Part shown: one piece after another, positions 5,818 through 54,586 of the stretch
Layout: each line of letters opens with the position of its first letter
Numbering within the stretch: position 1 is the stretch's first letter
Source of the DNA: Anolis carolinensis
Taxonomy: Eukaryota
DNA length: 64,000 bases
Direction: 5' to 3'
NCBI RefSeq assembly: GCF_035594765.1
Contig: NW_026943824.1
Span: 13,587,451 to 13,651,450 of the forward strand
Program-made: the position numbers and the translations under genes
Notes under the pieces: model-generated
What the model was told of the DNA's origin: nothing
What the model saw: the letters and a program-made list of their open reading frames with translations, nothing else
The model's database searches: none

Positions 5818-6072
5818 TGTGTTGTTGAAGGCTTTCAGGGCTGGAATCACTGGGTTGCTGTGAGTTTTCCAGGCTGTATGGCCATGTCCAGAAGCATTCT
5901 CTCCTGACATTTCACCACATCTATGGCAGGCATCCTCAGAGGTTAAACCCCACTTGCCTAGTTTCCAGCAGACCTCACTTCTAAGGATGCCTGCCATAGA
6001 TGTGGGTGAAATGACAGGAGAGAATGCTTCTGGAACATGGCCAGACAGCCCAGAAAACTCACAGCGACCCAT
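5818..6072. mobile_element. Penelope-like inverted terminal-repeat pair with degenerate hammerhead motifs
   Basis: Two inverted copies of the same repeat seen at 32497-33124. Confidence 0.75.
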
Positions 6073-19958: not shown

Positions 19959-21878
19959 TCCCGCTGCAGCCCTGACTTCTCCAACTCTGTCTTCTGACAA
20001 TGCAGGAGTTGTGCATCATCAGAGCCCTCCAAATCTGGCTGGAAACATGATAATCTTCCCACAAAGGCCAGGTAAAAGAGGCACACCTAGGCACCTCAGT
20101 TTGGAGAGAGACACGTGGAAGTGAAATTCTAGATCCCCGCAGCAGGGGGGCAGGGAGCGGGACTGCAGAGAGATGTTGTCTTGGGCACGATGATGGGTTC
20201 CTTGCCCTTCCTTCCCAGACAGACAGAGCATTCATGAGGAACACAAACAGGGGCTTTGTGTAAGGTCTTAGCCTGCTGGCACACACCCTAAATACCTCCA
20301 TAGATGTAGAACAAGAAAAAGTGGCTTGCCCCCCAACCCTCTGGACAGGTGAGATGTTAGCAACCGTTACAGGAATATTCACTCCAATATCATTTATTGG
20401 TCTTGCTTCCAAAGTACGAACTTAAACATCTAGTGTTTTTTCACTACATTAGACTGCAGCTCTCCAAAGTAAATAGTAATGTCAAGGTGAATGGGTTATC
20501 CAAACCTAGATATATATGTTTCACATTACAAGCTGTCAGTAAAGTTAGCTGCCATTTTTGAGAAGCCAAGATTCAGCTTAAAGGTTTGTGAAAATGACTT
20601 CCTTCCTTCCCTTTTCTCCCAAGACAGATAGAAAGAGAAGAGATGGCTTTACAAAATGAAAAAGCCCATCTAACAGAATCTATATTTGCTTAGCACCCAT
20701 CAGTATTGTGAAAGCTCCAGGCTCCAACAGTCTCATTAATTCAATTTCTGCTGGACACTGTCAACTCTACTTGATATAAAGAATGCCAGAGCAAAGTCAC
20801 AGAAGAAAAGAGTACTATCTGCTCCCTGGCAATTAAAGTGGAAGAACCAATACTGACAGGTTTTCTTTTTAAAAGAAAATCCAATGCAACGAGCTGAGTC
20901 ACTTTGGTCAGTTGAATAGGACAGCCAGTTAAAGTCTGGGATGTTTACTCCAAAAACTTGTAGCCACATTGAACAGACAAGTCAAAAGAGTAGTAAGAAT
21001 GTAGCTACGGAGCAGTAAGCCTTCAGGGGAAAAAAAAATCAGAAAGCTGTGGTGAGGACTTTGACATATCATTAAAATATGTCTGATGTAAGACTCCCAT
21101 AGTATTTGAAATGGCCCAAAGGAATTTCTGAATTATGCTTTTTCCCAAGATATGGGGCAAGACAAAGATGTCAGCTTGTCAGCATGAATTCCCTTCCTTG
21201 CTTGAAGCGCACCTGCCATCTTTTGATTCTAAGCTATTTTGTCTGGCAAAAGATCACAGTGCCTCCTTGAGTGAAAGAGAGAAAAAAAGAGGTGTAAGGG
21301 AGGCAAGAGAGAGAGGAATGCTTTTATGCCACATTCCCAGACTTTAGAATTCAAGTGAGCATACTGTGTGCTTCATGCCTCAAAGGTTAAACCTGGGCTC
21401 ATTTCCTCCTGGCAGACATCCATCCTGCTTTAGCTCTACTATGGCTCAACTGTCCTTTTCATGCCCCTCAAGAATAAAGAGAAAAACAGTGTCAGTTTCA
21501 TTATTGGTAATGAACATTTAGATGATTAGAATGGTTAGATGCTTTAAGGAAAGCAGCAAGCAGGTTTAAAGAGTTGAAAAGGTTTTCAAAAGCACTCAAC
21601 AAGTTTAAGTACAGATTTCTCTGCAAATGTAATATATCCCCTACTCCTTTGTGATTAGCCTGAAGTTAAGTAGTTTTGGTCTTTTTAGCATCATAACCCA
21701 TTAAATGATGAAGGGGTACTAACTCACCCAATGTAATAACACTTATTTATTTATTTAAAACAATTATATTCTGCCCTTCTCACCCCGAAGGGGACTCAGG
21801 GAGGAGCACAAAATATATGTGGCAAAGGGTTGTTGTGTGTCTTTTGGGCTGTGTGGCCATGTTCCAGAAGTATTCTCT

Positions 21879-21919
21879 CCTGACGTTTCGCCCACATCTA
21901 TGGTAGGCATCCTCAGAGG
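21879..21919 (-). ncRNA. Minimal type I hammerhead ribozyme motif in a Penelope-like repeat fragment
   Basis: Minus strand reads CCU-CUGAGGA-U-GCCUAC-CAUAGAU-GUGGGC-GAAA-C-GUC-AGG, with an intact catalytic core. Confidence 0.75.
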
Positions 21920-24203
21920 TTGTGAGGCATGGATAAACTAGGCAAACATTCAATATATGGCAAACATTCAATGCCAGAACATAAAATAAATCATAAATAA
22001 ACATAAACACTAAAATCAGTTAGCTTCACATTAAAATCATTATTTAAAACCATCACAAGTCAGCCTTACCATATCTGGTCAGCAGGATGAACACTTACAA
22101 CACTCTGACAACAAAAGCCACTGAATTTGTTTGAATATAGCATAGCATTTTACTGAAGTGTTTTTCTAATAAAATATTTCACTAAAGAAACCTGGCAAGT
22201 GGAAAAACCCAGATTATTTGTTTGTCATGACTATTTCTATCTCCCCAAAATACAGTTCTCAGTAATCCTACACTAGCAATCCCGCCATATCATTTTTGCA
22301 ATGCAACTTGTAAAATTCCTGAGACATAAAATGAAAAGATGACAAACACAGAAAACCAGTGACACTTTTGTTTAATATGACTCAAGTATAGGACTGGCGT
22401 TCCTTAACGCCACAACAGTGACTGTGTGGTCATTCACCATAATACAGTTTCACAACAAGGGCACAGAACAGTAGAGAGATGACAATTCCACCATATTCAA
22501 ACAGGCCTGAGCCACCATTGAGAGGGTCTAAACATTCATCATAAATGACACATTCCTCAATTTTTCCCAGAATTGCACAAGTCCCAGGAAAAGGACCACA
22601 AGAGAAAGAAACAGTTTCCATTACTGAAAGTAGAGAACAGCATTTAGGGTTACAAACAACTTTGATAAAGAAAAAAAGAAAAAGATGTTGAGAGAAAAAT
22701 TACAAGAACAGAGTAGAATCACTATGCATCTTTAGTACCTCCAAGCAGATGCCCATGCCATACAATTATTGCTTTATGAAACAGTGGCAAGCTCAAACAA
22801 GTTTCAAGTGTCTTCAGTATAGAAAGTGTAGCCTGCACACAAGGTCAGGGTGATCTGGGCTAGGCCTGCAAAACAAAGTACTGCTAAGTGTCTTCTCTTG
22901 GTTGCTAGGCGTGACTTTTCCGTTTTAAAACCTTATATCTACAGTGCTAAGGTATTTGGCATTGACGCCCAGAACAAAACTGAAGACTGGCATTTAGTGC
23001 AGCTAGGCACTAGAAAAAAATGCAGCTCATCATATTAACTGAAAACGTGCAACTCAGAATAGCAATTTTCCATTTTTACCAGAAGAGATATGCAAGGAAT
23101 TTTTCTTCTGTCTTCCGCAACACAGAAATAATACATTAGCAGGAAACCCTGGACTTGTTATTGTTGCTGCTTCATGAGTACTGACTCCAAAATGGCTGCG
23201 GAGCACCTGTTTACACCAGAGGACTCTCCCTGAAGGTGCCCCTTATATAAAGTCATCTACTCTTGCAGCCACAATATACCAGCATCGGTGAGGCATGGAG
23301 GGAAGCATGAGAGCTTTTGTTTCACCATTTAACAAATAATTCTAATACAACTACAGTTTAGAAATCATCAAGTAAACCTCAACTATTCTTCCTTAAAAGA
23401 GTGTTAAACCCTGTGGATAATTCTAATGATACTTTGGTATGTGCACAAGAATATGAGGAAGATCTATTAGAAATAATCAATCCCTTTTGACCAATACAAC
23501 TACATTTTCAATATATTATATTCACTTTTAAAATAGACATCTTGCTTTTAAAATAGACATCTGAAGCTCTTTATGTCGCTATATACATTCACCAATTTCA
23601 ACAGGGGCATACAGGAAACACAATAGAATCATCCATATTTTGCATATTAAGCAAGTGCAAATGGCAGAGTGAGGAGAGGGCTACAACAAGACTACCTGAC
23701 AAACAAAGGGTTTCCTTTTTCCTGACATCACCTCAGGATCAGGTCATCGAGAGATGGGACCTGAGTAACCATTAAAACCAAGCTTAAAGTTAAGCTCTAA
23801 GGATCAGATAAGGACAAGTGCCCTCAAACTATTCATTTCCCTGAATTTCCAGACGAAAAAGAAATAAACCACAGTGCAATGTTTTAACAGTAGTCTGCCC
23901 AACACCCTTCAAATCAGGTGGGAAAGACTCTTCCCTGACACTGGAGCACTGCAAAAACCTTTAAGACATACTGGATACTTTCACAACACTTGAAAACTGA
24001 CTGACACAACACACTTCCCTTTTTGGTTCAAAGTGCATTCTTACAAGGAATTTGTAAACAGATAATCCCAATTGAAATGTATGCATAAGAAGCATTTTAA
24101 GGTGCAAGGATCAGCTCTGTGCAAACTGAGGTGACACTACCAGCCTCAAGCCACTGGGGATGGAGGGGAAAATACCTTTCAAAATCTGGGTAATCTCCCT
24201 TTT

Positions 24204-29989: not shown

Positions 29990-30715
29990 AAAGCGCCTCA
30001 GAAGGCGCCCTCAGGTTTTCCGGCGACGGCGGTTGGCTGAGGCGCCTCCTGGCCCCGCCCCCCGAGCGCCCCCATTGGGCAAGAGGTTTCGCAAGTGGCC
30101 TTAGAATTGCCTTCAGGTCACCTCTGAGGGTCCGGCGATGCCGGTTGGTTAAAAAACCCACGAGAGCCCGCCCCCCGAGCGCCCCCATTGGGTGAGGAGC
30201 TTCAAGGCTCCGAGAGGCTTCAAGACCCCCCTCCCTTCCTTAGCTTCAGGTGCCTTCAATTCCCCTCAGGGCTTCCGACGACGCTGGTTGGCTGAAATGC
30301 CTCTTACTCCCGCCCCCCGAGCTCCCCCATTGGGTGAGAAGCTTCAAGACTGAAGCTTCAAGACTCCCCCTCCCTTCCTTAGCTCTCTCTCAAGTGCCTT
30401 AAGTTCGCCTCAGAGTTTCCGACGACGCTGGTTGGCTGAGACGCCTCCTAGTTCCACCCCCCGAGCGCCCTCATTGGGCGAGAGGTTTCGCAAATTGCTT
30501 TAAGATTGCTTTTAGTGTCCTTCAGAGCTTCCGACGTCGCCGATTGGTTAAGACCCCACGAGAGCCCACCCCCCGACAGCCCCCAATGGTTGAGAAGCCT
30601 CAGGACCCGCCTCCCTTCCTTAAACTCAGATTTAAGGTTCCCTCCATTCAATTCACCTCAGGGTTGGTTTAAAATCAACCTCCTGAATGCCCACATTGGA
30701 CATGAGGTTTCGCCA
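29990..30715 (-). promoter_or_regulatory. PGP promoter built of about 6 diverged tandem modules (CCAAY, GC box, CCAAT)
   Basis: Recurring ...CCGRCGACG..GGTTGG...CCCGCCCCCCGAGC.CCCCATTGGG... units start near 30010, 30121, 30263, 30408, 30521 and 30656. Confidence 0.75.
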
Positions 30716-30729
30716 GTCAACACTTAAAG

Positions 30730-31767
30730 CAGGGGTCCCCAAACTTTTTAAACAGGGGGCCAGTTCACCATCCTTCGGACCATTGGAGGGCCGGACTATA
30801 GTTGGCCAGCAAGCAATAATAATAATAATAATAATATCAAGTCCCACCTCCCAGCAACAAAGAACTGGTGGGATCACAAACCACAAAATAAGAAAATTGC
30901 ACAGACAGACTATAAACAGAGGCACAACTATGTGGCCCAAATGATTCATTGGAAATTATGCCTCAAGTGCCACCTCCCAGCAGTAAAGAACTGGTGGGAT
31001 CACAAACCTGCAAAAGTATTGGAAAATGAGCACGCAAAGAGACTTTGGGACTTCCGAATCCAGACTGACAAAGTTCTGGAACACAACACACCAGACATCA
31101 CAGTTGTGGAAAAAAAAAGGTTTGGATCATTGATGTCGCCATCCCAGGTGACAGTTGCATTGACGAAAAACAACAGGAAAAACTCAGCCGCTCTCAGGAC
31201 CTCAAGACTGAACTTCAAAGACTCTGGCAGAAACCAGTGCAGGTGGTCCCGGTGGTGATGGGCACACTGGGTGCCGTGCCAAAAGATCTCAGCCGGCATT
31301 TGGAAACAATAGACATTGACAAAATTACGACCTGCCAACTGCAAAAGGCCACCCTGCTGGGATCTGTGCGCATCATCCGAAAATACATCACACAGTCCTA
31401 GACACTTGGGAAGTGTTCGACTTGTGATTTTGTGATATGAAATCCAGTATATCTATCTTGTTTGCTGTGTCATAATAAAATAATAATAATAATAATAATA
31501 AAGAGGGTTGGAAGAGACCCTTTGGGCCATTGAGTCCAACCTCCTTCTGCCTTTGTGCACCAAAAGCACAAGAAAAGCACCCCTGACAGATGGCCTCCCA
31601 GCCTCAATGTTGTTGTTAATAATAATAATAATAATGATAATAATAATAATAGAGGTGACCCCTTGGGTCATTTAGCCCAACCCCCTTCTGCCTTTGTGCC
31701 GTGGGGGCCGGATAAATGGCTTCGATGGGCCGCATGTGGCCCCCGGGCCTTAGTTTGGGGACCCCTG
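30730..31767. mobile_element. hAT (OposCharlie1/OC1-like) non-autonomous element with a nested R4 fragment
   Basis: Perfect TIR CAGGGGTCCCCAAACT; 8-bp TSD ACTTAAAG at 30722-30729 and 31768-31775; R4 3' fragment at about 30837-31500 inside. The family name is from memory. Confidence 0.88.
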
Positions 31768-31775
31768 ACTTAAAG

Positions 31776-32050
31776 CGTCGCTTATTGGGCATGGCCAGGC
31801 AAGGGCTTCCTCCGATTGGGTGATTCTTACCCGGGGTCCGATTTTCCCTATTGGTGGGGCTTTTCCCTGCTCGTGTGCCTATTGGCCAACGGCGAGCAGC
31901 AAGGGCCCGCCTCCACCTTGACGAGCGGACGGTCGGGAGCTCTCCCTTCGGCCCCGCCCCTGTGCCCAGTAGCTCCGCCCACCCGATCATCCGTTGTTAT
32001 GACGACACGGCCGTAAAGCCGCCATCTTAGCGGTTGCGGCGCCTTGCGAC
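31776..32050 (+). promoter_or_regulatory. E4F1 CpG-island promoter
   Basis: ATTGG (reverse CCAAT) at 31784, 31815, 31850 and 31881; GC boxes around 31950-31980; YY1 motif CCGCCATCTT at 32019-32028. Confidence 0.8.
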
Positions 32051-35000
32051 ATGGAGGCCGCGACGGCAGCGAGCGCTGGGCCGGCGGCGCTTACGGCACC
32101 AGAGGAGGAGGACGGGCCCAGCCGCCAGGCCAGCAGCGCCGCCGCCTTCCTCAGCCTCCGGGCCTCGTTCGGAGAAGAAGGTAGCGAGAGTGGGAGTGGG
32201 CAGGGAGGGAGGGGCCTCTCTCCCCCTAGGCCGCGTCGCTGGAAAAAAGTGAGTGCCCCGCTCTTCTGTACAATACGGTCATCCGTCTTGGGCTGCGCTT
32301 TACTCAGATGACGGCGCCAGGGCCCTTTCAGCGCATGCGCGGAGGAGATGCTGAAGGAAGCAGTACTCCTGTAGCAGCAGGACCTCAATTATTATTATTA
32401 TTATTATTGACACAACAACATTGTATGACACAGCAAACAAGATAGATATGCTGGATTTCGTGTCACAAAATCACAAGTCGAACACTTCCCAAGTGTTGTT
32501 GTATGTCTTTCGGGCTGTGTGGCTATGTTCCAGAAGAATTCTCTCCTGACGTTTCGCCCAGATCTATGGCAGGCATCCTCAGAAGTTGTGAGACATGGAG
32601 AGACTAGGCAAGGAAGGTAAATATATATCATGCTTGACCACTCCAACAACTATGTCAGACTATGTCAGAGAAGCCATTGAAATCCACAAGGATGTGGACA
32701 ACTTCAACAGAAAGGAAAAAAACCATGAAAATGAACAAAATCTGGCTTCCAGTATTAAAAAACTCAAAAATCAGAACAGTAGATGGGAAGCAACACTCTG
32801 AGGGCAGAGGAGCCCCAGGGATGGCTAATGACTCTGAACAAAGGATGCCCCCCAGGCAAGAGACAAACCTTTCCAATGCTAATTAGGGTGATTAAATGCA
32901 ACATTAGCGCTGGCATCCAACTGAAAAAAGGACTCTTGTCACACCCTGGACTCTCCATAGATATACATTTACCTCCCTTTCCTAGTCTCTCCATGCCTCA
33001 CAACCTCTGAGGATGCCTGCCATAGATGTGGGCGAAACGTCAGGAGAGAATACTTCCGGAACATGGCCACACAGCCTGAAAGACATACAACACTGTGATC
33101 CCGGCCATGAAAGCCTTCTACAAAACTTCCCAAGTGTCTAGGACTGTGTGATGTATTTTTGGATGATGCGTGCAGATCCCAGCAGGGTGGCTTTTTGCAG
33201 TTGGCAGATCGTAATTTTTGTCAATGTCTATTGTTTCCAAATGCTGGCTGAGATCTTTTGGCACGGCACCCAGTCTGCCCATCACCACCAGGACCACCTG
33301 CACTGGTTTCTGCCAGAGTCTTTGAAGTTCAATCTTGAGGTCCTGATAGCGGCTGAGTTTTTCCTGTTGTTTTTCGTCAATGCGACTGTCACCTGGGATG
33401 GCAACATCAATGATCCAAACCTTTTTCTTTTCCACAACTGTGATGTCTGGTGTGTTGTGTTCCAGAACTTTGTCAGTCTGGATTCGGAAGTCCCAGAGTA
33501 TCTTTGCGTGCTCATTTTCCAATACTTTTGCAGGTTTGTGATCCCACCAGTTCTTTGCTGCTGGGAGGTGGTACTTGAGGCATAAGTTCCAATGAATCAT
33601 TTGGGCCACATAGTTGTGCCTCTGTTTGTAGTCTGTCTCTGCGATTTTCTTACAGCAGCTGAGGATATGATCCATGGTTTCGTCAGCCTCCTTGCATAGT
33701 CTGCATTTTGGGTCATCAGCTGATTTTTTGATCTTGGCCTGAATTGCCTTTGTCCTGATGTCTTGCTCCTGGGCTGCAAGGATCAGGCCTTCTGTCTCCT
33801 TCTTCAGGGTCCCATTCGTGAGCCAGAGCCAGGTCTTCTCCTTGTCAACTTTTCCTTCAATTTTGTCAAGGAATTTTCCATGCAATGTTTTGTTGTGCCA
33901 GCTGTCAGCTCTAGTTTGTTGTGCGGTTTTCTTGTACTGGTTTTTTTGTCTGCTGTGCTTTCAGGAGTTTCTGATTTTTGACAAAAATTAGCATTATTAT
34001 TATTTTAAATGTTATATTCTATATTATCATTGTGAAGTCTTTACATTAGCACATTATTATTTGTATACTATGCTGATACTATAGTATACTACCGTATGTT
34101 GATACTATATTCTGTTCTATATCATATTATCATTATGATGTATTTACATTATTATTATTTATCTTTAACCCACTTTTCTCCCATGGGTGGGATTCAAAGC
34201 AACTACAAAATCGACATAAAAATACAACAGAAAATCATACAAGCAAAGTAAACAGAAATACACACTACATAAACCAGATTTTAACAAATTAAAACATTAT
34301 ACCATTAAAAAATTCCCTGACCATCAGGCCATTAAGGTTATCAATTAAAAGAGTTATTCTAGTGTCCTAAAATTCAATTTCCTTTAATAATAATAATAAT
34401 TTTATTTTTATACCCTGCACACTGAAATGGATTATATGGCAGTGTGGAGTCAAGATAATCCAGTTCAAAGCAGATAATATAATATTATAAATGGGCTATA
34501 TAGCTGTGTGGAAGGGCCTGGAGTCTACACTGCCATATAATCCAGTTCAAATCAGATAATCTGTATTTTATAGGCAGTGGGGAAGAGGCCTTAGTGAGGC
34601 CTAACTCTGCCTGTCCCCTAGGCTGAGTGGGTTGCTAGGAAACCAAGTGGGCGGAGCTTAGCCTTCGAACTGGCAACAATTGGATAAAAGCAATTACTCC
34701 TCTCCCTCTAATTAGGATTTTCTTTTTCTTGTATGAACGTAGAGGCACAGATGAGGGGTTGTGCTGCCAAGTTTAGTGTTTCTGGGGTGTGTAGTTTTGT
34801 TGTTTTGTCCTAGGCCGAAATTTCATTACCCTTTTATAAGTAAGGTATAGATATACAATGAAAACTCAAGTATGATAGCATAAAAGATTAGGGCCCTTTT
34901 CCATGCCTTGGGCAAGATCCACAGTTATGAACAAGATAGATTCTGTAGGTTGAATTTGTGTGTGTGTTTTGAATTGCATAGAGAAGGGTTAAGAGCCCTG

Positions 35001-36902
35001 TGTGAGTTTGTTATGCTGTCTGTGCCCCTGTTCAGAAGATTTTTCTCCTTGTGTTAATTGGATTTCATGCTATCTTGGCATAATGTGGCAAGTTATGCTG
35101 TCCCTTCTAAAGATGTGCTTCTTTCCATTCTTTTGGACAACAGACGAAGACGACCGGCACAAGTGCGGCCGCTGTGGATCTGAATTCACCTCTTTGGAAG
35201 AATTTGTGCAACACAAGCTTCAAAAGCTTTGCCAGAAGCAACAAAATGCCGCAGACACAGCAGTAACAACCTCGGCAAGTTTACTAGTGCCAGAAATGGA
35301 TGCTCATCCTGGAAAGGGGTGGGGGTGGATAGCATAACAGTATTGCCATTATAGTTTTGGGTAAGAGCTGGATGACTGGAGAAAAAAATCATTGATTTTT
35401 TTTGGTGTAGTAACAGTAAGAAGGCAGTAGGACTGATGCTGGTTTAAGTCAAGATGATGAGGGAGGAGTGGTTCTGCTTTGAAGCCATTCAGATTTCAAA
35501 CCTTCCTAGAAAAGCATTTTAAACATTATGAATTTAATAGGGTTGTATTTACTCCTTTTATGGTTTCAGGTGATTTCCTCTGTTGAAGAACCCATAACTG
35601 TCGCCCACATTGTAGTGGAAACTTCTCCCATCACAGAAGAAATTAGCAACGCATCTGCCATTGTAGGTAAGTCAAACAATTTTTGCAAGTTGGTGTGATC
35701 ACCTCCCTTGATGCAGGAACCTATCCAGGTTTTTGCTCTTTCTGCCCCTGGTGCCCCAATTTCTCTTTAAAAAGTAATGATTATTTTATTATTTATTTAC
35801 AGTATTTATATTTCGTCATTCTCACCCCAAAGGGGACTCAGGGCGGATCACATTACACATAAAGGCAAACATTCAATGCCTTAACATAGAACAAAGACAT
35901 GACAAACACGGGGCTCTGAGCTGGCCTCGAACTCATGACCTCTTGGTCACAGTGATTTGTTGCAGCTGGCTGCTCAACAGCCTGCGCCACAGCCCGTCCT
36001 GGGTTATCTCTGACTTGGAAGGTATACACTTGGACATCCAGAGAGCATTTCATCAAATTGCTTATTATAGTAATGGAGTCATGGGATACAATGGCATGAG
36101 ATGATGTTGGGATGCAACTTCCTAATGTTTCTCACTGCAATCCAGTATTTGCAATGGGTCTATGCTTTCCTCACCAGGATAGGAGGACAAACCGTTCCTC
36201 TTATGAATCATTAACATTTTTGGCCAGTCATTCCCTTGGCATCTTCCTTGCAGAGAGCGGGGTCATCAAGGAAGTCATTGTCACTGACGGCCAAGTCTTC
36301 GAAAGTCCCAACGGCCACATCGATGGCAATGGCCTCGGAGAGGAACAGCGCAGCCCCGAGGGGGAGGAGGAAGAGGAAGAAGACAGACCAGGCTCCGTGG
36401 AACTCATCAAGGTCAAGCTCTTGGTCAACAAGGAAGGCCGCTACGTGTGTGAGCTCTGCCACAAGACCTTTAAGACGGTATGTGGCATGGCCTGCCCATT
36501 TTGTTGTCAAGGGCTGTCAGATTGGTGTAGGGTTATACTGGCAGGCACGAGCAAACTGGCTCTCGTTCCACGTGTTTTGGACAGTCGATAGGTTGTTAGG
36601 AATGGTGGGAGTTGAGGTTTTAGGAAGGGCTGAAGTTTGTCCATGCCTGGCTTGCAGTAATTGAATGAGGGATCTTCTGTAAGGCCCTATCTGCACTGTC
36701 ATATACTGTCCTTTAGCTGCACCGAACTGGGTTATATGGCAGTGTATATACCCATATTTCTTCCATTATAAAACATCATCGATTGTAAGACGCACCCTCA
36801 TTTCGGTACCAACAACAGCATAAATACGTGAAGATACACCTGTGATTCTAAGACTCATCCCATTTTTAGAGATGTTTATATGGGAAAGTGCATCTTAGAA
36901 GA

Positions 36903-36941
<39 letters not shown>

Positions 36942-39900
36942 TCTTTATTTGTAACCCGCCCTATACATCAATCAGGTATACAGTAATTCAGTAATCCAGT
37001 TCAATGCAGTGTAGATGGGGCCTGAGGGAAGCAGCCATGACTTCCTTGATGAAGTCCATCCACCTTAATCATGTTCTCCTCCTTTTTCCTACTGTCCTCT
37101 CATGTTGTGTGAGATAGATCAATAATACCATGCTATAGCACCTCACTACATTATCTGTAAGTAATGCCTTTTTGTGCAACTCATGAGGAGTGGATTATTA
37201 TTATTATTATTATTATTATATCTGGTCTCCTCCCCAAAGGGACTCAAGGGACCTAAGAAATAAAACACCTGTGTTGCTATCTAGCTTTGACATTCCCTGC
37301 AAGAGAACACTCTGTGCCTGACAGTTTAAATGTGTTTGATTATTTTAATTGATGTATTTGTTATGGTTATGTTGTATGTTTATGTTGGCAATTAAATGCT
37401 TTATCTATGTTGGAAACTGCCCTGAGTCCCTTCGAGGAGATAGAGCAGTATACAAACAAAATGTATTTATTTATTTTCACCTTCTCTTTGCCTCCTCTTG
37501 CTGTCTGTAGGCCAGCATCCTCAAGGCCCACATGATCACACACAGCACCAGGAAGGACTATGAGTGCAAGTTGTGCGGGACCTCCTTTCGGACCAAAGGC
37601 TCGCTGATCCGGCACCATCGCCGCCATACAGGTGAGGGACCTGCCTTGCTTTGGGGAAAAAAAGTGACTCATTCATACGCAGCATTCAGTCAGTGAGTTA
37701 AAAGGAATTTTCCCGGCTGCTTGGCTTCCTCCTTGAGCCTACCAGCTCTGCCTTTCCCCCTTCAGATGAGCGCCCTTACAAGTGCAAGAAGTGCGGGAAG
37801 AGCTTCCGGGAGTCAGGGGCTTTGACGCGGCACCAGAAGTCCTTGACTCCCTGCACCGAGAAAATACGCTTCAGCCTCAACAAGGAAATCCTTATCAGTA
37901 AAGAAGACTTGGCCGCAGGTGAGCAAAAAGGCACCTCCTCTCTCCTTTCGGGGTGGAGTTAGAACTGGTCACCTCCTTTCAGCAAAAAAATAAAGCCACT
38001 GTAAGAAGCAGAAGGAGAGGGCCACTAAAATAATCAAAAGCCTGGAAGCCACGAATAATCCTGAGGAAGAGCAGCTTAAAGAGCTTGGTCCCTTTATCCC
38101 GCAGAAGAGAAGGTTAAGATGAGACATAAGAGCTATGTTTACATATTTCTTAAGGAAAAAGGAGGAGGCTTGTTTTCTGCTGTCCTGGAGATTAGGCTTC
38201 AATGAAGCCATGGGTTCAAATGACAGGAAAGGGGATTCAGTTGGGGCAGACTGCAGGATTATTTGTCGTGTTGGGAGCAGTGTGGCAGCGCATGTGTCCC
38301 ATGGGCTGCAGGGCCAGAGGTTACATGACGTGTCCCCCTTTTCTTTGAAGAGCCCATCAGCCCCACTGCCGAAGCTGTCCCCTTGCTCCCCACTCCCCCT
38401 GCAGAGCCTTCGCCTGTCATCCACCTGGTGACGGACGCCAAGGGCAACGTCCTCCATGAAGTCCATGTCCGGATGCAGGAACTCCCCAAAGCCTTGGGCC
38501 AAGAGGTTAGTAGGAACGTTGTTGCGTGTAAATGCTGTAGGTGAACTCCGAGAGACTTCTGCCTGGGGCAAACATTTCTGTAGGCTCTGCTAGAGACAAA
38601 ACGCCTGGCTTCTTGGAAAGGGTAAATATCAACAAGGCTTGCAAAGGAGAATGATTTAAAAGGGGTTCTCTTTCCTCCATCGTGGTCAACTGTGAAATAC
38701 GCACATATGGTAACCCTCAGCCTATGCTGACAATTCACGGAATCTTCTAGAGCTCTCCCAGCGGAAGCCCCGCCCACTCTACCCCATGACCTATATATAG
38801 CCAGTCTGAGGGGCTGCCGCCCAGTTCCCTGCCGCGATAGTAGCAAGGTAAGAGGCATGACATAGTGGGGAGGATGGGCGGGGATGTGCGAATTTCACAG
38901 GTGACCACTCGGAGAAACAAGGTTACAGGTAAGCAACCTTTTCTTTCCTCCATCGTGGTCAACTGTGAAATATGCACATATGGTAGATTAGCGAGCTACT
39001 AACCTTGGCTGGTGGGAGTCACACCACCGTAGAAAAAAATACTGCTCTTCCAAATGAAGCATCCTTTCGAGACACTGCATCAACCTTGTAATGTCTGATG
39101 AATGCTGATGGATTGGACCAAGCAGCTGCACGGCAAACGGCATCTATGGGCACACCTTTCATAAAGGCCACTGAGGTGGACATTGATCTCGTTGAGTGGC
39201 CTCTAACATGTTCTGGCAACTCTCGGCCAGCTAGCTTGTACGCGTATCGAATTGTAGCTACAATCCATGCCGACAGCCGTTGTGTGGATACTGGTGCACC
39301 CTTAGTATCTTCATGATATTTCAGAAATAATCTTGGAGATTTACGAAATTCAGCTGTTCTGTCAATGTAAAAAGCCAGCGCTCTTTGAACATCTAGCGAC
39401 AAAACATGGAGGGCTTGAGAAGAGGGCTATCTTGCTTTGTTAACGCAGGCCTGTTGCTCTTGCAGCCTTCGAACGCCGAGGAGCTGCCCCTCGACGCCGA
39501 AGAGAACGAGAACTTGCTGAGGGAAGCCATGAGAAATTCTGGGATTGTGATTGAACGGGTTTCTGTGGAGGAGAGGGCCGACTCGGTTGCCACTGATGCC
39601 ACATCTGCTGCAGAGGAACCAAAGGGCGAGGAGGCCTCAGTAAAGCTCTGCGGGGAGCAGTTTGTGGAGATTGAGGAGGCTGAAACGGTGAGCACCATCC
39701 AAGGCAACTCCAGCTTATAATATTCAGACCCGGTCTGCTTTCTCTACTGCTCTTGAAATCCACTTTGCTGTTGCGTTTCTGTCCTAACATTTTCTCTCTT
39801 TTTGTAGCAAGAAGCAGATGTGACGGAGGAAGGCAAGGGCCATGCGTGCCCCTACTGCAGTGAAACCTTCAGGGAACGTAGCTCACTGGATCTCCATATC

Positions 39901-53694: not shown

Positions 53695-54586
53695 TGAATG
53701 TGGAAGAATGGAACCAAAAGAACCCAAACTCTATTATACTATGTAACAAAATTTGAAATTTTTTCTATTCCTGGTTTGAAAGTGATATTTCCTATTTAAC
53801 TATGCGGTCCTTATTTTGAATGTAGTTGTTCTGCTCTAGAAACTTCCTTTTTGTGGCTGCCACAAGGAGGCTTTTAAGCAGAGGCTGGATGGCCATAAGT
53901 CGGGGGTGCTTTGATAGTGCTTTTCCGCACAGAATTTATTTACCATATTTATACCCCACCCTTCTCACCAACCAAGCGATAACTATAACTCCTACCTTGG
54001 GGCCAACCAAGGTAAGAGTTATAGTTATTATTGGATTGCTGTGAGTCTTTCGGGCTGTATGGCCATGAAGCTTTCAACACCTCATAACGTCTGAGGATGC
54101 CTGCAATAGATGTGGGTGAAATGTCAGGAGAGAATGCTGCAGGAACATGGCCACTCAGCCCGAAAGATTCACAGCAACCCAGTGATTCCAGCCATGAAAG
54201 CCTTGAACAACACATACTGTAGTTATTATTGTTTGGAGTCATCAATGTTGTTGTTGTTGATGTTGTTTATTTATTTATTTCCATCATTTCTATCCCATCC
54301 TTCTCACCCGAAGGGACTCAGGGCGGCTTACAAAACTGGCAGAATTCGATTCCAATTGTTGTTGTTGTTGTTATTTGGGGTCAATCACGACAGGAGGAAG
54401 AGAATAGTTATTTATTTATTTACTTACTACATTTATGTCCCGCTCTTCTCACCCCGAAGGGGACTCAGAGTGGCTTACAAATCAAATGTACATACAATAT
54501 ATTATTAGCATAGCACAATATAAGCATAGTAATTTAATGAAATTAATATATTGTACTATATCATTATATGGTAATATTATTAGTAA

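What the first reader, a model, noticed from the sequence alone, without database searches (positions are those of the whole stretch)
32484..33137. Penelope element with sense and antisense hammerheads nested in an R4 element in E4F1 intron 1
Seen: a 13-bp TSD, a GIY-YIG remnant, an intact hammerhead at 33004-33044 sense to the E4F1 pre-mRNA, and its inverted copy at 32545-32585. Inference: in the transcript the two >100-nt inverted arms can pair, which would mask the ribozyme and create an ADAR/dsRNA substrate, a possible built-in off state. The palindromic ACGU in place of stem III fits the known dimer-dependent minimal hammerheads.
Basis: partly seen in the sequence, partly recalled or inferred. 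Interest (0 to 1): 0.7.

Follow-up and report, generated by a model that had tools for sequence, protein, structure and literature searches.

The report
Ordinary fold-back stub of anole Poseidon
This is an ordinary, decaying stub of a known lizard jumping gene (Poseidon) whose two mirror-image ends are predicted to pair in the E4F1 transcript, likely get RNA-edited and likely keep its small ribozyme silent, most likely as a by-product of how the element inserts rather than as an evolved switch.

Summary
There is an exact 13-nt target duplication, 133-nt inverted arms, an unmutated minimal hammerhead core on the E4F1 sense strand and a damaged inverted copy, all inside a non-LTR fragment in E4F1 intron 1. 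The element is a 5'-truncated Poseidon_Ac (PAc) copy. Its hammerhead was tested in print (PMC11167929): it cut only with PAc protein, and no RNA-seq ends were found at the cut. The genome holds 14,707 exact copies of the core. The inverted arm plus one-ended tail is the published Penelope layout: in a positional sample, 48 of 100 cores lay in target-duplicated head-to-head pairs, and all 36 pairs kept had one tailed and one tail-less arm. Folding predicts masking, but the ribozyme is predicted to misfold without the arm too. It has no sense partner in E4F1 and lacks RNA that the in-vitro insertion reaction needed. Heavy A-to-I editing of anole Penelope is also published (PMC5625713). Verdict: real, known kind, most likely inert. 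The 'off state' is likely a by-product of insertion. The one fresh angle is that this layout may explain that editing. The scan noted such stubs before, in this genome and others.

The parts
32051..32180 (+). E4F1 first coding exon
   Evidence: translation matches lizard E4F1 N-termini weakly (E 0.15), GT donor at 32181, phase fits exon 2
32181..35143 (+). E4F1 intron 1 (2,963 nt)
   Evidence: GT..AG, exon 2 from 35144 continues the frame; gene identity
32388..32408 (-). (TAA)n at the 3' end of the host non-LTR fragment
   Evidence: sequence
32409..32483 (-). 3' UTR of host element, beyond the insertion
   Evidence: 96% to paralog 31402-31474
32484..32496 (.). left target-site duplication, 13 nt
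   Evidence: empty sites
32497..32629 (-). inverted, tail-less PAc arm (ORF positions -53 to +80)
32545..32585 (-). antisense hammerhead copy, two changes, top stem II pair broken
32630..32886 (+). frameshifted C-terminal end of the PAc ORF (end of endonuclease domain, no GIY/YIG motifs)
   Evidence: tblastn to L073 ORF residues 242-324
32960..33092 (+). sense arm of the pseudo-LTR, pairs with the left arm
32996..33012 (+). predicted local hairpin (CCUCA/UGAGG) that takes up the CUGAGG core
   Evidence: fold; prediction only
33004..33044 (+). minimal type I hammerhead, predicted cut after 33041; PAc ATG at 33013
   Evidence: cut 26 nt past the start codon as in PMC11167929
33093..33124 (+). 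Penelope 'tail' (3 nt shorter than the family majority), ends at the second RT start region
33125..33137 (.). right target-site duplication, just after the host stop codon
33138..33960 (-). 5'-truncated host non-LTR ORF end (zinc knuckle, restriction-like nuclease region; R4-like by recall), frameshift near 33220

Best explanation
The insert is a truncated Poseidon_Ac retrotransposon copy with the family's usual head-to-head layout, likely made when both cut target strands primed copying of one template, and in E4F1 pre-mRNA its arms are predicted to form a 133-bp duplex that is likely A-to-I edited while the hammerhead likely stays inactive. Shown: identity with PAc, TSD, arm geometry, copy number, one-tail polarity and shared subfamily alleles between arms. 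Inferred: priming at the two published RT start sites, one per strand; joining of the two 5'-truncated cDNAs; neutral decay since insertion; duplex formation and editing in vivo. The ribozyme has four predicted blocks: no stem III and no cis partner, a competing local hairpin, the missing +115..+172 RNA tied to PAc protein action, and the antisense arm. E4F1 splicing is likely unaffected.
For: 33042-33124 matches the PAc RNA printed in Fig. S1 of PMC11167929. 14,707 exact cores genome-wide, 0 for the reversed control. Sample of the first 100 cores on contig C1: 48 of 100 lie in TSD-flanked head-to-head pairs, with only 1.5-2.5 kb of flank fetched. 59 arm combinations were examined and 39 had a TSD call; 36 were kept and all 36 are tail plus tail-less. 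25 of 36 TSDs are 12-13 nt; random control 1 of 300 at 9 nt or more. Either arm can be the longer (7 tail, 17 tail-less, 12 unresolved). Arms share subfamily alleles: site +40 13 both/0 one/22 neither, site +70 12/0/23; shared variants 57 against a shuffled maximum of 35. The window's arms differ at 10 of 133 sites, 5 derived on each arm. Core and downstream departure rates are equal in the sample, 44/2634 and 46/2640. Folding; 36 of 36 exact cores in paired inserts up to 1 kb lose stem II. Literature.
Against: No raw RNA reads were available, so pairing, editing and lack of cleavage at this locus are untested. Equilibrium folds ignore co-transcriptional kinetics; the arms are 330 nt apart. 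The sense core is unmutated while five changes lie elsewhere in that arm, though this is expected by chance about 16% of the time (my arithmetic, (92/133)^5). One tail-less/tail-less pair with a 16-nt TSD was dropped because it shares an end with an inner pair, and two rows were dropped because their 'TSD' was PAc sequence. Shared alleles cannot separate one RNA primed twice from a cDNA copied back on itself.
Confidence: 0.85

Rival explanations
1. Evolved off switch: the inverted arm is kept, by the element or the host, to mask an otherwise active ribozyme, and editing or unwinding releases it to cut E4F1 pre-mRNA.
For: Masking is predicted. The core is unmutated. On either strand a head-to-head insert reads antisense arm first, then sense ribozyme.
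Against: Stem I probability is about 0 without the arm. PAc hammerhead is inactive without protein and no RNA-seq ends lie at the cut (PMC11167929). The layout also occurs in Naiads, which lack canonical hammerheads (PMC8557442). Both arms decay evenly. Editing of core adenosines would damage the motif (inference). Intronic hammerhead cuts left splicing intact in cited work (PMC2995048).
Confidence: 0.05
2. Occasional trans activity: in cells making PAc protein and RNA, the sense core sometimes dimerises through ACGU before the arm pairs and nicks the intron, without much effect on E4F1.
For: Intact core; PAc is expressed; dimeric minimal hammerheads cut weakly in vitro (PMC4209133).
Against: The ACGU duplex is worth only -3.1 kcal/mol against -230 for the arms; the stub lacks +115..+172.
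Confidence: 0.08
3. The 628-bp fold-back is itself a non-autonomous unit that was copied whole.
For: Eight other loci align over most of the insert; 231 loci share one exact palindromic junction.
Against: Those loci differ in arm length and in which arm has the tail; junctions vary widely in the positional sample.
Confidence: 0.02

Closest known systems
PAc / Poseidon_Ac of Anolis carolinensis (Frangieh et al. 2024, PMC11167929)
   Same: Sequence, ATG at the start of stem II, cut 26 nt past the start codon, copy ends at the two RT start regions, tail between them.
   Different: This copy is 5'-truncated, has no RT or GIY/YIG motifs and no downstream ORF. The text I read does not discuss inverted arms.
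Inverted pLTR plus one-ended tail of endonuclease-bearing Penelope-like elements (PMC3846280, PMC8557442)
   Same: Inverted 5'-truncated copy next to the direct copy, 30-40-bp tail at one end, TSD around the whole unit, nesting in other non-LTR elements.
   Different: Those papers call the tail optional or 'often at one end'; here polarity was 36 of 36 in the pairs kept. TSDs are mostly 12-13 nt against 8-10 nt in Adineta.
Minimal type I hammerheads of Penelope-like elements (Cervera and de la Pena 2014, PMC4209133)
   Same: Core, bulged nucleotide before stem II, G10.1-C11.1, palindromic 15-16 positions, no stem III; opposite-strand pairs 100-700 bp apart already reported in Schistosoma.
   Different: Stem I is 3 bp and stem II 6 bp, shorter than their 4-5 and 7-8 bp examples.
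ADAR hyper-editing of inverted repeats; lizard Penelope with over 40,000 sites (Porath et al. 2017, PMC5625713)
   Same: Long near-perfect intramolecular duplex in pre-mRNA from a repeat.
   Different: One insertion supplies both arms. The section I read reports the editing but gives no structural reason.

Membership tests
Penelope/Poseidon EN+ elements (PAc) | Sequence identity to PAc pLTR-ORF junction | tested here: met
Penelope/Poseidon EN+ elements (PAc) | C-terminal GIY-YIG endonuclease after RT | tested here: inconclusive
   Only the C-terminal end is in this copy; sister copy L073 shows GVY..YIG by eye, but Pfam gave 0 families for it
Penelope/Poseidon EN+ elements (PAc) | Inverted 5'-truncated pLTR, one-ended tail, TSD | tested here: met
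Minimal type I hammerhead | CUGANGA and GAAA cores, NUH cut site, stems I and II | tested here: met
Minimal type I hammerhead | Palindrome in place of stem III | tested here: met
   ACGU at 33037-33040
Minimal type I hammerhead | Covariation in stems | tested here: inconclusive
   31 rows: 93.9% paired against 92.8 shuffled; 2 of 9 pairs with a two-sided change (37/500 shuffles as high); score 66/500
Minimal type I hammerhead | Self-cleavage | not testable with these tools
   family motif cuts with PAc protein in vitro (PMC11167929)
Rfam hammerhead models | Covariance-model match | tested here: not met
   no hammerhead among 4 matches at E<=5
R4-clade non-LTR host | Single ORF with RT, zinc knuckle and restriction-like nuclease; simple-repeat 3' end | tested here: met
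   nuclease motif read by eye
R4-clade non-LTR host | RT phylogeny within R4 | not tested
   no named R4 reference among the 40 hits; label is recalled
Non-LTR retrozyme | Head-to-tail tandem units each with a hammerhead | tested here: not met
   arms are head-to-head; definition from 10.64898/2026.07.22.740005

The most novel reading that the evidence does not exclude
PAc writes both ends of nearly every insertion from one template with fixed polarity, one strand from each RT start site, so any read-through transcript in either direction folds back. This would explain why Penelope is the dominant ADAR substrate of the anole, and it would mute thousands of intronic hammerheads whatever their orientation, letting the family spread into genes at low cost.
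Probability: 0.35. Interest if true: 0.45.

Novelty: already known. Interest (0 to 1): 0.18.

Why it matters
The locus itself matters little: it is one of many thousand similar stubs. The family-level counts give PAc biochemistry two testable constraints (one tail per insertion; both arms from one source) and offer a structural reason for a published but unexplained editing hot spot.

Tried and rejected
Rfam scan: no hammerhead hit. RNA evidence: no RNA holder listed. Contigs of four runs laid on 31950-32950 and 32630-33400 were swamped by paralogs, and none spanned the stretch, so they say nothing on editing, cleavage or presence/absence. Two independent RNAs per insertion: rejected by allele concordance. 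ADAR marks fixed in genomic copies: A>G 9/1687 against T>C 4/888; one double A>G core against five for a double G>A control; no sign. Loop-II pseudoknot, a lead from note e1-9296904: the best match was 6 nt with G-U pairs in the majority and was not kept in the window copy; 30 older-subfamily copies showed no consistent partner by eye. The 'arm removed' control kept 25 nt upstream and so some junction sequence in short stubs; I rely for the window. Pfam found no family for the L073 ORF. Lunse et al. 2017 was not held.

Full report
Observation. The sequence shows an exact 13-nt duplication at 32484-32496 and 33125-33137; a paralogous host copy carries it once, as do six copies in the window. 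Between the two lie an inverted arm (32497-32629), a direct piece (32630-33124), and within it the partner arm (32960-33092); the arms are 133 nt and 92% complementary. The 41-nt motif at 33004-33044 has all core nucleotides of a type I hammerhead with no stem III. Rfam does not detect it. The gene is E4F1, and the insert lies in intron 1, 32181-35143. The host is the antisense 3' end of an RT-encoding non-LTR element, hit just after its stop codon. 'R4' is a recalled label; PMC7561263 lists R4 as an anole clade (passages), but I did not test placement.

Identity. The stretch after the cut site matches the RNA printed in Fig. S1 of PMC11167929, and the cut lies 26 nt past the ATG codon as stated there. 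The insert is therefore a Poseidon_Ac (PAc) copy, and the genome is most likely the green anole. Only the frameshifted last part of the ORF is left, without the GIY/YIG motifs. The core occurs 14,707 times without mismatch.

Is the layout special? I fetched the first 100 exact cores on contig C1, chosen by position, merged into 80 tracts. Arm ends piled up at two places, +80 (74 hits) and +111 (65 hits) in window numbering. The second agrees with the published RT start at 111-118; the first lies one tail length upstream, where the paper places the other start. Of 59 head-to-head combinations, 39 had a TSD call. I dropped two whose 'TSD' was PAc sequence and one tail-less/tail-less pair sharing an end with an inner pair. 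All 36 kept were one tailed plus one tail-less arm, 25 with 12-13-nt TSDs; 1 of 300 random controls reached 9 nt. These pairs hold 48 of the 100 cores, a lower bound given short flanks, and in 26 of 36 both arms cover the whole core. The inverted copy with a one-ended tail is described in PMC3846280 and PMC8557442 (passages), including in Naiads, which lack canonical hammerheads.

How it forms. The two arms of one insert share subfamily alleles far beyond shuffles (57 against a maximum of 35), so they come from one source. Either arm can be the longer, which a fixed-order fold-back does not explain simply. PAc nicks and extends both strands in vitro. I infer priming on both strands, one from each start site, then joining of the truncated cDNAs. 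A cDNA copy-back is not excluded, and PMC3846280 favours self-priming.

What it does in E4F1 RNA. Folding predicts a duplex of -230 kcal/mol and 0.95 mean probability that core nucleotides pair with the left arm; the duplex has five A-C mismatches and two G-U pairs among ten non-Watson-Crick sites. Without the left arm stem I still does not form: a local hairpin takes the CUGAGG box and a distal helix takes the 3' strand. No other PAc piece lies in E4F1. In print, the PAc hammerhead cut only with PAc protein, the insertion reaction needed the first 172 nt of ORF, and no RNA-seq reads ended at the cut; this stub stops near +112. Slow intronic hammerhead cuts left splicing intact in work cited by PMC2995048 (passages). 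Porath et al. report over 40,000 hyper-edited sites in Penelope of Anolis brain, against 8,663 in all SINEs, so editing here is likely but not shown.

Selection. The arms differ at ten sites, five derived on each. In the sample, cores depart from the majority as often as downstream sequence (44/2634 and 46/2640), although the sample was chosen on exact cores. Covariation across 29 of the 30 loci (L126 left out for an insertion) plus the two window copies was inconclusive. No editing marks are fixed in genomic copies.

Novelty. The element, ribozyme, layout and family-level editing are all in print. Searches listed no paper that ties the layout to the editing or to twin priming. Arkhipova 2006, Evgen'ev and Arkhipova 2005 and Lunse 2017 were not seen, and Fig. 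S2 and the GenBank file of PMC11167929 could not be read; they may already cover this. Papers seen: PMC11167929 parts 1-2 of 4, passages and two supplements; PMC4209133 parts 1-2 of 4; 10.64898/2026.07.22.740005 part 1 of 5 and passages; PMC5625713 section 7, passages and supplement rows; passages only of PMC3846280, PMC8557442, PMC7561263, PMC2995048, PMC6765202, PMC4640811 and PMC10085705. Earlier scan notes reached similar readings on other DNA; they are not counted as support.

Verdict. Real, already known in kind, and most likely inert. Interest 0.18.

Noticed in passing
L078 (G000:C1, near 3014590-3014620): The junction between two PAc arms holds a short TTAGGG-repeat filler, one case among 22 junctions printed; suggests telomerase-type addition or a template switch.
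   Followed up: no
loci L031-L116; 231 loci genome-wide: Many arms stop near ORF position -17, at the 5' base of the predicted CCUCA/UGAGG hairpin; 231 loci share one exact palindromic junction there. Could be a transcription start or an RT stop.
   Followed up: partly
window 30837-31474 and 32409-33960: A second copy of the host element sits on the + strand between PGP and E4F1, forming a larger inverted repeat across E4F1 exon 1; probably not in one transcript.
   Followed up: no
window 30009-30717: Degenerate 110-144-nt tandem repeats with CCAAT-like and GC-rich boxes near the start of the PGP-like gene.
   Followed up: no
L147-L176: Older related Penelope subfamilies with G-C in place of a G-U pair in stem II; many copies carry an A-A mismatch in the same stem.
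   Followed up: partly
window 39019-39426 (-): ORF resembling the C-terminus of a tyrosine recombinase (DIRS-like, by recall) inside an E4F1 intron.
   Followed up: no
window 5822-6050, 21831-21945, 54080-54210, 57633-57681: Further PAc-like pieces in the window, one of them a head-to-head pair.
   Followed up: no
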